Positions 49,101 through 52,100 of a stretch of 64,000 nt of DNA are shown piece after piece; within the stretch, counting starts at the first letter, position 1, and every line of letters starts with the position of its first letter. The stretch lies in the NCBI RefSeq assembly GCF_003018255.1, contig NZ_CP027440.1; one strand, 5' to 3'. The position numbers were made by a program. Origin of the DNA: Escherichia coli (GTDB lineage Bacteria; Pseudomonadota; Gammaproteobacteria; Enterobacterales; Enterobacteriaceae).

Positions 49101-52100
49101 ACTTAGCGGTATCGCCAGATAAAGAACGGCTTTGTACAAGCGTCCCGGACTGCCCCCCGCCGCAGAGATAGCGGTAATTTCCGAGTCGGTATACATCTGC
49201 CCTAGCGTCACGCCAACTGACACATACAGTCCAACAGGTAACAACATCTCCAGTGCAATCAGCACTTTGTAGAAAACGATATCCAGCACAACATCAAGAG
49301 CTAATGTCCCATTTGCCGCTTCGGTCAGATAACGCTGTGCGGAGTAGCTGGCGAAAATAAAGATCAGAAAACCGACGATAATCAGCACCAGACGGCGCGT
49401 ACCACGCATGATGTAGTGTTCAACCAGCTTCATCTCACTAACGCCCTCAATCCTTTGAATTTTTATTCATTGATCAGCTTCTGCGCCAGCGCAATGACAT
49501 GATCTACCTCTTCCGGCGTCAGGCTGCCGTCCTTTGCCCACTGAATTTGCCCGGTTTTATTCAGCACCAGAATGGTTGAACTCTGCTCCTGCAAGTGCCA
49601 GGCAACGCGTCCCTGTCCATTGCCGTCAATAACGAATTGCGCCCATGGATAGCGGCGTTTATTTTTTTCGATTTTGCCAACGACAAAATAGCCGGTACCA
49701 AAGATGGCATCATCAGTGTTCACAATGGTGGTGGGCTGAAAACGATCCTGCGGAAAGTTTGCCGCTTCAACTGCTTTAATTAACAGTGAGTTCTTTTTCT
49801 TCGCCGACTTACGCCCGGCGATATACTGAATAATGCGAACTTTTCCCGCCAATTGGGTGCTGTTCCACTTTTGGTAGTGAATTTCGTCGTCGCTATTCCG
49901 AAGCAGCTCGCCGCCTTCCTGGATATAAACGGGGGTAACCGTTTTGCCAGTGACGAAATTGTGTGCCTGCACACCCGGGGCTAAGAGCATGATAATCAGC
50001 GCAATAATCAAACGAGATGACATCATTGCTCCGGTTATAGCGGAAAACGCGAAATCAGCAGTTCTAAGCGCTGGCGAATATCGCTATCCAGCGCCATCGG
50101 TGCATCATACGACTGGCGGTTTTCCATATCATCCGCCACCATGTCGTCGTGTTTATCCCCCATCAGGCCATTAATGGCGGCGAGGAAGCGGGAAATCTGT
50201 AACGCTTCTTTATTTTCAGGATCAAGCGATCTTAGGGTGTCGTAATAAGAAACCTGCTGGCTGATGATTTTTCGCACATCATGAAATTCCCTGCCGGTTA
50301 GTCGCGGTTTGGCAATTATCTCTTTCAGGGTATGCATTTGCTTTTGCCGATAGGCAATAAAACCGCTTACGCTTTCTAACTGGCTATGGCGTAATGAATA
50401 GTTCACCAACGACCAGACCGGAGAGCTTAAATAAACCCGTAACAGGTTGCCGTAATACGACACAATATTTTTCTTACCGTTACGAAAGCCGTCCTGAAAA
50501 CGCCCCAAAAAAACGGTCGTTTTGCCGAATAAAAATCCGGCCTGATGCTTCTTTAAATACAGCCGTTGCGCAAAACGCAGGTGCTTGTAGCGCGCTCGCA
50601 TGTATTTAAATTGTTTGCGCTCATCAGCAGTCAGCTCATCGCCTTTGGCCTGTTTGCATATTAAACGCAGTAACTCCTGGCGATTGACGCCATTGAGCCA
50701 GAATTGCAGGCATAACGCGTAATTATCATGGATGATTTCGGTGGTACAACTTAGTGCGATAGTCGGCGGCAAACTGACCTGTGCATCAACGACATCATCT
50801 TCTTCAATCGCAACAAATAGACGCTCGCTCGCCTCTAGCGGGAAATATTTTCTCATCATCAGGATTTCTCTCCGGCTGCGTTATAAAGCAAGGAATGGCG
50901 CTGAAAAAATGCCTTTAAGGTCGGAATTAGCGAAAGCACCACATCCAGACATTGACCACCGAAATAAGCAAACGCTGCTCCCAGCACGCCAAACAGATGA
51001 CAGAACATGAACAGCAATACGATGTAGCCGATTGAGGCGATGGTTTGCGCCACGAGAAAAGCGCGCTGTTTTCCCGCCATCAATAGCAATGACTCCTGAG
51101 GGAAGCCCAGCATCGAGATCACAATTGCGCCCAGCATCACCTGAATCAGGTCATACGCTTCGAGATACTTAACGCCAAACACCAGCGAAATGAGCGGCTT
51201 GCCGACAATCAACACCGCGAGCGCCACCAGAATACCGATTCCGCCCGCCAGTAAACCTGACTTCACGCCTAACAACCACGGTCTGGTGGTACGCGGATCT
51301 AAACGCATCACCTCTGGGTAAAAACTTTTGCCCAGTAAACCCGCTGGCGTTCCGGCGGCGTCGAAGAATGTCATGGCGATTTTAAATAACCCGGCGGCAG
51401 CGGGTCCTAACACGATCCCCACCAACACTGTGCTGCACGAATTACGCGCCGACCAGATGGAATGGGCAATGTTGGTTGACCAGACAAAACTCCACGCGCC
51501 TTTGATGTGTCGGGCAGACTCAAACAGATTCAATTTGAACGCGTTATGGATATTTCTGCGGCGTAATTCACGTGCGGCAAACCACCAGTACATGGTGCCG
51601 CCAACAAGATTCGAGGCGTACCAGGCAATAACAAAACCCGCAAAACCAAAGTCAAAATACCAGGCAACGACGCTCCCCGCTGCGCGCAGAAAAGGTTTCG
51701 TCGCTTGCTGTACAGCAATTAGATCGAAGCGATCTACCGCACGCAGAATGCCGGTCGGCGTGGAGGAAGCCATTGAAGGAATGAGCGTGCAATACAGCGC
51801 TGCCAGCCAAAAGCTTTGGTCATCCAGACCTAATGAATGGGAAAGAAAAGGGAGTAAGGCAATGCCGCCGACAATCGCCACCGCGCCGCTGACGATATCC
51901 AGCGAGAAGGAAAATGAGACGACATTGCGGAATTGCTGCGGATTATTGTTGGTTAATGCTGGTGTTCCGTACTGAACCACCAGCTGCCATGTCTGAAACT
52001 TAATAAAATCGCTGATCGACTTGGCGTACGATTGTACAATCACCAGTACGCCAAACATGGCGGGCGTCATCCCTTTACCGGCACACGAGAGCGCCAACAG

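What the first reader, a model, noticed from the sequence alone, without database searches (positions are those of the whole stretch)
49463..50859. Two uncharacterised genes embedded in the export operon: a cysteine-free exported protein and a 274-aa cytoplasmic protein
The 187-aa product has a clear signal peptide and no cysteines, so it cannot be a redox-active thioredoxin or peroxiredoxin; it may be a periplasmic binding or chaperone-like component. The 274-aa product has no motif I recognise, and its start overlaps the flippase stop, which implies co-translation. Their positions between the flippase and the Lpt-like permeases make them candidate accessory factors for the same pathway.
Basis: partly seen in the sequence, partly recalled or inferred. 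Interest (0 to 1): 0.5.

Follow-up and report, generated by a model that had tools for sequence, protein, structure and literature searches.

The report
CHAD-like and YtfJ genes, sphingolipid locus
The two "unknown" genes sit in the E. coli sphingolipid locus: one is a second copy of the periplasmic, cysteine-free thioredoxin-fold protein YtfJ, and the other is a divergent polyphosphate-binding-type (CHAD) helical protein always found with a lipid flippase and three kinase-like proteins. That conserved grouping suggests a testable role in making or exporting an anionic sphingolipid.

Summary
Both ORFs are real genes at the stated coordinates, under purifying selection (dN/dS 0.07 and 0.10-0.20). 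The window is E. coli chromosome. The "export operon" is the transport and head-group half of the yghO-yghT sphingolipid locus, which K-12 has partly deleted.

The 187-aa protein is not unclassified. It is a YtfJ_HI0045 family member and a 54%-identical paralogue of housekeeping YtfJ. It has a TlpA/ResA-like thioredoxin fold, a signal peptide and no cysteines.

Across 80 loci in four orders, this gene keeps two partners: the YghQ flippase directly upstream and YghR/S/T thymidylate-kinase-like proteins. YtfJ2 and LptF2G2 join it only in Enterobacterales.

My inference is that the CHAD-like protein binds a phosphate-rich ligand and links the kinases to the flippase, and that YtfJ2 handles the product in the periplasm. 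The family and fold assignments are solid. The mechanism is untested.

The parts
49463..50026 (-). ytfJ2: a locus-specific paralogue of YtfJ. Exported, cysteine-free, TlpA/ResA-like thioredoxin fold. 187 aa as an ORF; 186 aa from the second ATG at 50023.
50035..50859 (-). CHAD-like protein ('Ybl138', 274 aa). Cytoplasmic, basic (pI 9.2), all-helical. Its start overlaps the yghQ stop codon (TGATG).
50859..52208 (-). yghQ: MOP/Wzx-type flippase, 449 aa. The conserved upstream partner of the CHAD-like gene.
   Evidence: NCBIfam MOP flippase, weak. Pfam Polysacc_synt_3 in orthologues. Immediately upstream of the CHAD-like gene in 65 of 80 loci.
52254..53012 (-). yghR: thymidylate-kinase-like P-loop protein.
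   Evidence: Weak TMPK matches. P-loop and DRYPQ motifs. Co-located with the CHAD-like gene in 70 of 80 loci.
53044..53757 (-). yghS: thymidylate-kinase-like P-loop protein, paralogue of yghR and yghT. Probable first gene of the operon.
   Evidence: A sigma-70-like site at 53835-53807 lies upstream; this is a consensus match only.
53932..54624 (+). yghT: third thymidylate-kinase-like P-loop paralogue, transcribed divergently.
   Evidence: The most widely retained neighbour of the CHAD-like gene, including in Acetobacter and in beta- and gammaproteobacterial MAGs.
48363..49433 (-). lptF2: LptF paralogue of the sphingolipid locus.
   Evidence: RefSeq annotation. Pfam LptF_LptG in orthologues. 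The Caulobacter homologue is implicated in sphingolipid export (bioRxiv 10.64898/2026.04.12.717747).
47287..48366 (-). lptG2: LptG paralogue. Last gene of the operon.
   Evidence: A hairpin at 47255-47289 separates it from the convergent spt gene.
41651..47252 (.). Ceramide-synthesis half of the locus: yghO (bCerS-like N-acyltransferase, minus strand), then aasR, cerR/epi, acpR and spt (plus strand).
   Evidence: RefSeq annotation. The BL21 orthologues ECD_02850-02854 are assigned in PMC9386255; AcpR, AasR and SPT were tested experimentally, while 02850 and 02852 are assigned by prediction.

Best explanation
Shown:
- The two genes are components of the enterobacterial sphingolipid locus (yghO-aasR-cerR-acpR-spt / yghT / yghS-yghR-yghQ-274aa-ytfJ2-lptF2-lptG2).
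- The 274-aa protein is a cytoplasmic, basic, all-helical protein with the CHAD fold. Its invariant Lys/Arg/His residues are spaced i, i+3/4, i+7 on two equivalent helices.
- Its gene is translationally coupled to the YghQ MOP flippase. Across Enterobacterales, Xanthomonadales, Sphingomonadales and Acetobacteraceae it stays with that flippase and with one to three thymidylate-kinase-like P-loop proteins (YghR/S/T).
- The 187-aa protein is YtfJ2, a duplicated copy of the periplasmic YtfJ. It has a redox-dead TlpA/ResA-type thioredoxin fold. It was recruited to the locus only in Enterobacterales and always sits directly after the CHAD-like gene.

Inferred:
- The YghR/S/T proteins phosphorylate the ceramide-derived lipid or its phosphate head group on the cytoplasmic face.
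- The CHAD-like protein uses its basic surface to hold a phosphate-rich ligand. This could be the phosphorylated head group, or polyphosphate acting as donor or scaffold. It presents this ligand to, or gates, the YghQ flippase.
- After flipping, periplasmic YtfJ2 binds or shields the product, possibly through its invariant basic loop IAGRxSAKxKN, which occupies the place of the CxxC motif. LptF2G2 then extract the product for delivery to the outer membrane.
For: Locus identity: PMC9386255; the Caulobacter LptF2G2 preprint, which draws the E. coli UTI89 locus.

CHAD fold:
- Model pLDDT 91.2, pTM 0.88.
- Foldseek orthologues at TM 0.92-0.95 are named CHAD domain-containing in Sphingomonas, Acetobacter, Gluconobacter and Zymomonas.
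- CHAD is the only Pfam family that recurs in distant members: 7 of 32 at E <= 0.1, best 1.5e-3. Faint precomputed CHAD hits also appear.
- Invariant and near-invariant residues are K85, R88, K92, R95, H105, G119, D123 and H193, R196, K197, N230, G234, H237, D238. This mirrors the His29/Arg32/Arg36 (HxxRxxxR spacing) polyP-binding residues mutated in SsCHAD.
- pI is 9-11 in most members.

Partnership:
- tblastn census of 80 loci: flippase directly upstream in 65 loci (70 have a flippase within 10 kb), and at least one kinase in 70. YtfJ2 is present in 46 of 48 Enterobacterales loci and 0 of 32 elsewhere.
- One homologue is fused to an APH-type kinase.
- The stop/start overlap is TGATG here and ATGA in Serratia.

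YtfJ2. Canonical ytfJ has a sigma-E promoter and encodes a periplasmic protein.

Selection.
Against: - No ligand, lipid product or interaction has been measured. The chemical product of the E. coli locus is unknown.
- The E. coli protein itself gets no Pfam CHAD hit. hhalign of the family profile against E. coli YgiF finds nothing. The internal-repeat signal is weak (E=0.013, probability 3%).
- Characterised CHAD domains bind long polyP and not other phosphate-containing ligands. Head-group binding would therefore be a departure from known CHAD behaviour.
- The locus has no PPK, PPX or CYTH genes.
- Some distant homologues carry signal peptides or lipoboxes, so the fold is not restricted to a cytoplasmic role.
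- YtfJ2 keeps almost all the invariant residues of housekeeping YtfJ. Its biochemical activity is therefore probably generic to the family and not specific to sphingolipids.
- About 24% of E. coli genomes, including K-12, have lost the genes without obvious harm.
Confidence: 0.5

Rival explanations
1. Lpt-accessory model. YtfJ2, and perhaps the 274-aa protein, are dedicated accessory subunits of the LptF2G2 extractor. YtfJ2 would stand in for the LptC2 or LptA function that Enterobacterales lack in this locus.
For: ytfJ2 lies 29 nt upstream of lptF2 here and directly upstream of it in most enterobacterial loci. lptC2 is reported to be restricted to Caulobacter, and the periplasmic steps are unknown. 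Canonical ytfJ is in the sigma-E envelope regulon.
Against: In the rearranged loci (Sodalis, Rosenbergiella, some Erwinia, Pantoea and Serratia), lptF2G2 sit elsewhere while ytfJ2 stays with the CHAD-like gene and the flippase. YtfJ2 has a thioredoxin fold, not the LptC/LptA beta-jellyroll, and it has no membrane anchor. The CHAD-like gene occurs without lptF2G2 in all 32 non-enterobacterial loci.
Confidence: 0.2
2. The 274-aa protein is a generic helical scaffold or regulator. It might be a flippase chaperone or a kinase regulatory subunit. Its resemblance to CHAD would then be only the common geometry of four-helix bundles, with no phosphate-polymer binding.
Against: All three solved long CHAD domains rank first, with twice the aligned length of any generic bundle. 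The invariant residues are the basic and His residues that define CHAD, arranged in two repeats. CHAD is the only recurrent Pfam signal. No TPR match appeared in any search.
Confidence: 0.15
3. The genes are dispensable, decaying cargo of an accessory island and have no current function in E. coli.
For: 1306-1318 of 5426 complete genomes lack them, K-12 has a deletion, and IS1-mediated and deletion-fusion alleles exist. A frameshift allele in an A7 run occurs on at least 120 contigs.
Against: dN/dS is 0.07-0.20 with no stop codons across species. Synteny is conserved across orders. The exact A6 frameshift allele was found in none of the 1884 complete genomes that the probe matched. SPT, AcpR and AasR from the same BL21 locus are active.
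Confidence: 0.08

Closest known systems
CHAD domains (Pfam PF05235): Chlorobium CtCHAD (3e0s), Ricinus RcCHAD (6qv5), Streptomyces PptA (6rn5), and the C-terminal domain of E. coli YgiF (5a61)
   Different: It falls below Pfam's threshold and has no detectable similarity to YgiF by hhalign. It is not encoded next to PPK, PPX or CYTH enzymes. Instead it sits next to a MOP lipid flippase, thymidylate-kinase-like P-loop proteins and sphingolipid genes. PolyP binding is untested. Some distant relatives are secreted.
YtfJ / HI0045 family (PF09695, TIGR01626): E. coli housekeeping YtfJ, a sigma-E-regulated periplasmic protein of unknown function
   Same: 54% identity over the full length. It has the same signal peptide and A|HNF mature N-terminus, and the same invariant motifs (IAGRxSAKxKN, TTIVNTDDA, YPWAQF, WAKDG). 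It has no cysteines.
   Different: It is a second copy embedded in the sphingolipid operon, not in the ytfK-ytfJ-ytfI-cysQ region. It is present in only about 76% of E. coli genomes, whereas canonical ytfJ is in more than 99%.
TlpA / ResA / DsbE(CcmG) / peroxiredoxin-type thioredoxin-fold proteins
   Different: There is no CxxC motif and no peroxidatic cysteine. A conserved basic loop lies where the active site would be, so the protein is a binding or chaperone-type module and not an oxidoreductase.
Caulobacter crescentus sphingolipid transport genes (LptF2, LptG2, LptC2, and flippase CC_1166 / CCNA locus)
   Same: LptF/G paralogues and a Polysacc_synt-type flippase are encoded beside spt, acpR, aasR, cerR and bCerS. 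The proposed logic is the same: flip the lipid, then extract it to the outer membrane.
   Different: The published analysis of the Caulobacter locus lists no CHAD-like, YtfJ or YghR/S/T genes. It has CpgA-C-type head-group enzymes and LptC2 instead. The enterobacterial head group is unknown.

Membership tests
YtfJ_HI0045 (PF09695 / TIGR01626) | Full-length match to the family HMM above the curated cutoff | tested here: met
   Pfam E=1.4e-59 over residues 26-183. TIGR01626 scores 212.5 bits against a cutoff of 151.1.
YtfJ_HI0045 (PF09695 / TIGR01626) | Exported protein with a cleavable signal peptide and conserved mature N-terminus | tested here: met
   KD19 of 2.03 at the N-terminus. A21 and H22 are invariant in 20 homologues.
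YtfJ_HI0045 (PF09695 / TIGR01626) | Orthology to housekeeping ytfJ (the ytfK-ytfJ-ytfI-cysQ neighbourhood) | tested here: not met
   Canonical ytfJ lies elsewhere and is only about 65% identical in DNA and 54% in protein. It is present in 5409 of 5426 genomes. The window gene is therefore a paralogue.
CHAD domain (PF05235) | Match to the Pfam CHAD HMM at or above threshold | tested here: not met
   No CHAD hit for the E. coli protein or for 23 enterobacterial homologues. Among 32 distant members, 7 hit at E <= 0.1 (best 1.5e-3) and none at <= 0.001. Faint precomputed hits appear in P0357 and P0349.
CHAD domain (PF05235) | [quoted passage not shown] | tested here: met
CHAD domain (PF05235) | Conserved basic and histidine residues forming the polyP-binding surface | tested here: inconclusive
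   Invariant or near-invariant K85, R88, K92, R95, H105, H193, R196, K197 and H237 have helical spacing that puts them on one face. This matches the HxxRxxxR spacing of the residues (His29/Arg32/Arg36) mutated in SsCHAD.
CHAD domain (PF05235) | Binds inorganic polyphosphate | not testable with these tools
   Needs purified protein (GCI, ITC or gel shift).
CHAD domain (PF05235) | Fused to, or in an operon with, polyP enzymes (CYTH/TTM, PPK, PPX) | tested here: not met
   The neighbours in 80 loci are a MOP flippase and TMPK-like P-loop proteins. No PPK, PPX or CYTH appeared among the genes examined.
LptC / LptA (OstA-like beta-jellyroll Lpt bridge proteins) | Beta-jellyroll fold, plus an N-terminal membrane anchor for LptC | tested here: not met
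   The 187-aa protein has an alpha/beta thioredoxin fold and a cleavable signal peptide. The 274-aa protein is all-helical. No LptC or OstA Pfam hit was found.
Thiol-disulfide oxidoreductases / peroxiredoxins | Catalytic CxxC motif or peroxidatic cysteine | tested here: not met
   The 187-aa protein has zero cysteines, and the mature region of the family has no conserved cysteine.

The most novel reading that the evidence does not exclude
The conserved five-gene module (three thymidylate-kinase-like proteins, a MOP flippase and a CHAD-like protein) may build and export a lipid with an oligo- or polyphosphate head group that has not yet been described, for example ceramide di- or triphosphate or a polyP-tethered lipid.

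Thymidylate-type kinases add phosphate to a phosphate. A CHAD-type domain is the only known protein module specialised for phosphate chains. Here it would act as the chain-binding adaptor that hands the lipid to the flippase. In Enterobacterales, a redox-dead thioredoxin-fold protein (YtfJ2) would then chaperone the lipid in the periplasm to LptF2G2.
Probability: 0.12. Interest if true: 0.8.

Novelty: new variant of a known kind. Interest (0 to 1): 0.45.

Why it matters
Work on bacterial sphingolipids has defined ceramide synthesis and has only just implicated LptF2G2 in export. The flipping step, the periplasmic step and the enterobacterial head group are all unknown.

This analysis shows that a CHAD-fold protein and three thymidylate-kinase-like proteins travel with the flippase across four orders of sphingolipid-producing Proteobacteria. 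That gives a concrete, testable set of candidates for head-group phosphorylation and for handing substrate to the flippase.

It would also extend CHAD domains beyond polyphosphate granules into membrane-lipid biology. The full-text search found no paper that mentions both CHAD domains and sphingolipids.

It also gives the long-orphaned YtfJ family its first pathway context. The locus is present in about three quarters of E. coli genomes, including the strains BL21 and UTI89 named in the cited papers, so experiments are easy to set up.

Tried and rejected
- Sequence searches of the 274-aa protein against Pfam, NCBIfam and PDB gave nothing usable.
- NCBIfam found nothing in the extra regions of nine long fusion homologues.
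- hhalign of family alignment A2 against full-length E. coli YgiF gave nothing (probability 0.4%). A single-sequence template is weak, so this does not exclude CHAD.
- A final profile search for intermediate sequences with precomputed CHAD hits listed only close relatives.
- The search for related loci with the very divergent alignment A2 failed for lack of a conserved stretch. It worked with alignment A3.
- I tried to count the A6 frameshift allele with short probes. The A7 probe was removed by the low-complexity filter. The A6 probe matched 1884 genomes, none of them exactly. The allele's frequency is therefore only loosely bounded.
- The idea that YghR/S/T are PPK2 enzymes is not supported. 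Only weak thymidylate-kinase and generic P-loop matches were found.
- The 'TPR repeat protein' label from SEED is not supported by any search.
- A redox-partner role for YtfJ2 with the periplasmic reductase CerR is rejected, because YtfJ2 has no cysteines.
- Gene contexts of distant secreted homologues, and of the solitary Pluralibacter copy, were uninformative.
- A search for 'Ybl138' in the literature found only yeast gene hits.
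Full report
**Where the window comes from**

The 1.7-kb stretch around the finding is 100% identical to many E. coli chromosomes. It is present in 4173 of 5426 complete genomes, and 4108 of them carry at least 80% of it.

RefSeq annotation of an identical strain gives this gene order: glcDEF - glcC - yghO - fatty acyl-AMP ligase - NAD epimerase - ACP - serine palmitoyltransferase, then on the other strand lptG - lptF - 'YtfJ family protein' - 'hypothetical protein' - 'lipopolysaccharide biosynthesis protein' (the yghQ flippase) - a hypothetical protein at the yghR position (so named in strain MB53) - yghS, then yghT and pitB.

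This is the E. coli sphingolipid locus. For BL21(DE3), PMC9386255 assigns ECD_02850-02854 as N-acyltransferase, AasR, reductase, AcpR and SPT. That paper shows that the AcpR, AasR and SPT proteins are active; 02850 and 02852 are assigned by prediction. A 2026 preprint shows that the Caulobacter LptF2/LptG2 paralogues are needed for sphingolipid export, and it draws the E. coli UTI89 locus for comparison. It mentions neither YtfJ nor CHAD.

**Checking the observation**

- The 187-aa product has a typical signal peptide (MMSSRLIIALIIMLLAPGVQA|HNF) and no cysteine. The 274-aa product has no hydrophobic segment (maximum 19-residue Kyte-Doolittle score 0.82) and three cysteines.
- The 274-aa start shares one base with the flippase stop codon (TGATG). 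The remaining gaps in the operon run from -4 to 45 nt.
- A 16-bp hairpin at 47255-47289 closes the operon against the convergent spt gene. A weak sigma-70-like site lies upstream of yghS.
- Against other Escherichia species, Pseudocitrobacter and Citrobacter, dN/dS is about 0.07 for the 274-aa gene and 0.10-0.20 for the 187-aa gene, with no internal stop codons. These values fall in the range of spt, lptF2 and yghQ.

Both are therefore real genes under purifying selection.

**The 187-aa protein**

It is a full-length member of YtfJ_HI0045 (Pfam E=1.4e-59; TIGR01626 212.5 bits against a cutoff of 151.1).

A distant blastn search finds two places per genome (median). The second place is housekeeping ytfJ, which lies beside ytfK, ytfI and cysQ and is present in 5409 of 5426 genomes. 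The window copy is present in 4120. The two proteins are 54% identical and share nearly all the family-invariant residues. I call the window gene ytfJ2.

From the model's secondary structure (strand 63-70, loop 71-77, helix 78-89), the invariant basic loop IAGRxSAKxKN sits where thioredoxin-fold enzymes carry the CxxC motif. This placement is my inference and was not tested. It suggests an anion- or phosphate-binding site.

Canonical ytfJ has a sigma-E-dependent promoter and encodes a periplasmic protein of unknown function.

**The 274-aa protein**

Pfam, NCBIfam and PDB sequence searches found nothing.

Homologues are abundant in Enterobacterales. A profile search of 1.84 billion representative sequences found 303 relatives.

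Foldseek against AFDB50 finds orthologues with TM 0.92-0.95 and 28-42% identity in Sphingomonas, Acetobacter, Komagataeibacter, Gluconobacter, Zymomonas and Commensalibacter. Most of these are named 'CHAD domain-containing protein'.

In a 32-sequence alignment reaching down to 18% identity, the invariant residues are R88, G119, D123, H193, R196, K197 and D238. The near-invariant ones are K85, K92, R95, H105, N230, G234 and H237. They form two copies of a [K/H]xxR...K ... G...(H)D pattern. The published CHAD study describes two four-helix bundles with conserved basic residues that bind polyP. In that study, a His29/Arg32/Arg36/Arg69 mutant of SsCHAD loses binding.

Sequence-level support is only sub-threshold. 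CHAD is the single Pfam family that recurs in distant members (7 of 32 at E <= 0.1, best 1.5e-3), and two distant relatives have faint precomputed CHAD hits. However, the E. coli protein itself has no hit. hhalign against YgiF is negative, and the internal repeat is weak (E=0.013, though in the expected register).

I therefore describe it as a divergent CHAD-fold protein. It is not a certified Pfam member.

**Who it travels with**

I fetched 80 loci from one genome per species and mapped the 13 proteins of the window locus onto them with tblastn.

| Group | Loci | Flippase directly upstream | At least one YghR/S/T-type gene | ytfJ2 within 700 bp downstream | lptF2/G2 within 10 kb | spt within 10 kb |
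|---|---|---|---|---|---|---|
| Enterobacterales | 48 | 44 | 41 | 46 | 45 | 41 |
| Xanthomonadales | 5 | 4 | 5 | 0 | 0 | 5 |
| Sphingomonadales | 18 | 16 | 17 | 0 | 0 | 0 |
| Acetobacteraceae | 5 | 0 | 3 | 0 | 0 | 0 |
| Other | 4 | 1 | 4 | 0 | 0 | 0 |

- Over all 80 loci, the CHAD-like gene lies directly downstream of a YghQ-type flippase in 65, and 70 have a flippase within 10 kb. At least one YghR/S/T-type gene lies within 10 kb in 70. Most exceptions in Enterobacterales are loci cut short by contig ends.
- In Sphingomonadales the unit is kinase-kinase(-kinase)-flippase-CHAD-like. In Sphingobium this unit is bounded by unrelated genes.
- In Acetobacter a yghT-type gene directly precedes the CHAD-like gene.
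- Two of the five Xanthomonadales loci carry the CHAD-like gene as a tandem pair.
- The two Enterobacterales loci without ytfJ2 are solitary extra copies in Pluralibacter.
- In the rearranged loci (Sodalis, Rosenbergiella, some Erwinia, Pantoea and Serratia), lptF2G2 lie elsewhere and ytfJ2 stays next to the CHAD-like gene.
- One distant homologue fuses an APH-type kinase domain to two CHAD-like repeats.
- YghR/S/T match only thymidylate kinase, and weakly. They keep its P-loop and the DRY-type motif, here DRYPQ. That these motifs are thymidylate-kinase hallmarks is from my own knowledge.
- The published gene-by-gene analysis of the Caulobacter locus lists no CHAD-like, YtfJ or YghR/S/T-type gene.

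**Mechanism**

Shown:
- The fold and family of both proteins.
- Their predicted compartments.
- Translational coupling of the CHAD-like gene to the flippase.
- The conserved module of kinases, flippase and CHAD-like protein in sphingolipid-producing lineages.
- The Enterobacterales-only addition of YtfJ2 and LptF2G2.

Inferred:
- The kinases phosphorylate the ceramide-derived lipid or its phosphate.
- The CHAD-like protein uses its basic surface to bind that phosphate-rich head group, or polyP, and couples the kinases to the flippase.
- YtfJ2 binds the flipped product in the periplasm before LptF2G2 extract it.

The main caveats are these. Characterised CHAD domains are specific for long polyP. 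No lipid product is known for E. coli. Some distant homologues are secreted.

**Loss and decay**

About 24% of complete E. coli genomes lack the genes. One strain shows an IS1-mediated truncation. Deletion fusions exist. A one-base deletion in an A7 run of ytfJ2 gives a 153-aa product seen on at least 120 contigs, but it was not found exactly in any complete genome that the probe matched. The genes are therefore accessory and dispensable in the laboratory. They are not generally decaying.

**Novelty**

- RefSeq already names the 187-aa protein as YtfJ family.
- UniProt already labels some orthologues of the 274-aa protein as CHAD-containing.
- The full-text search found no paper mentioning both CHAD domains and sphingolipids, and none on Ybl138.
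- As far as I could find, the conserved kinase-flippase-CHAD module and its tie to sphingolipid producers have not been described.

I rate this a new variant of a known kind, of moderate interest.

Noticed in passing
window 49662-49668 (minus strand, inside ytfJ2); L088 and L089: ytfJ2 contains an A7 homopolymer. An A6 allele frameshifts the protein after residue 121, giving a 153-aa product (P0206) seen on at least 120 contigs. In L088 lptF2 is also split. This could be slippage, decay within one lineage, or homopolymer sequencing error.
   Followed up: partly
L086 (E. coli MB53, NZ_CP073939.1) 6004-6862: An IS1A element truncates ytfJ2 after about 48 codons and is followed directly by glcA. 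lptF2, lptG2, the ceramide genes and part of the glc region have been deleted. Other deletion alleles fuse ytfJ2 to the lptG2 C-terminus (P0139) and fuse the CHAD-like gene to a GspM-type sequence (P0032).
   Followed up: partly
L004 / L039 (contig SZPQ01000026.1, 'Martelella alba' BGMRC 2031): An assembly labelled as an alphaproteobacterium carries a locus with Serratia-like gene order and 61-77% protein identity to E. coli. The contig is probably from an Enterobacterales organism, through contamination or mislabelling.
   Followed up: no
L046 10001-11750 and L053 9152-10816 (Luteibacter): The CHAD-like gene is tandemly duplicated downstream of the flippase. These Xanthomonadales loci have spt and the kinases but no ytfJ2 or lptF2G2 within 10 kb.
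   Followed up: no
L021 9890-10804 and L028 (Pluralibacter): A solitary extra copy of the CHAD-like gene, 57-60% identical, lies outside any sphingolipid locus. In L021, the copy examined, it sits next to a TetR/BetI-like regulator and a BetT-like transporter. One Pluralibacter MAG has both this copy and the full locus (L023).
   Followed up: partly
P0349 (L092 6001-8931); also P0305, P0386, P0325, P0329, P0347, P0357, P0374, P0383, P0384: Distant family members include one fusion of an APH-type kinase to two CHAD-like repeats, and several proteins with N-terminal signal peptides or a lipobox. The fold is therefore also used outside the cytoplasm.
   Followed up: partly
window 49463-50026; alignment A4: Every mature YtfJ-family protein begins with an invariant histidine directly after the signal-peptide cleavage site (A|HNF). 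An invariant N-terminal histidine is reminiscent of metal-binding 'histidine brace' proteins. This was not tested.
   Followed up: no
window 52254-54624 (yghR, yghS, yghT): Three paralogous P-loop proteins, 36-42% identical, keep a thymidylate-kinase-like P-loop (GxDGSGKST) and a DRYPQ motif, but have no significant match to any curated family. RefSeq's name 'dTMP kinase' for them is probably an over-annotation.
   Followed up: partly
window 47255-47289: A 16-bp GC-rich hairpin lies between the convergent spt and lptG2 genes. It is a likely bidirectional terminator for the two halves of the locus.
   Followed up: no
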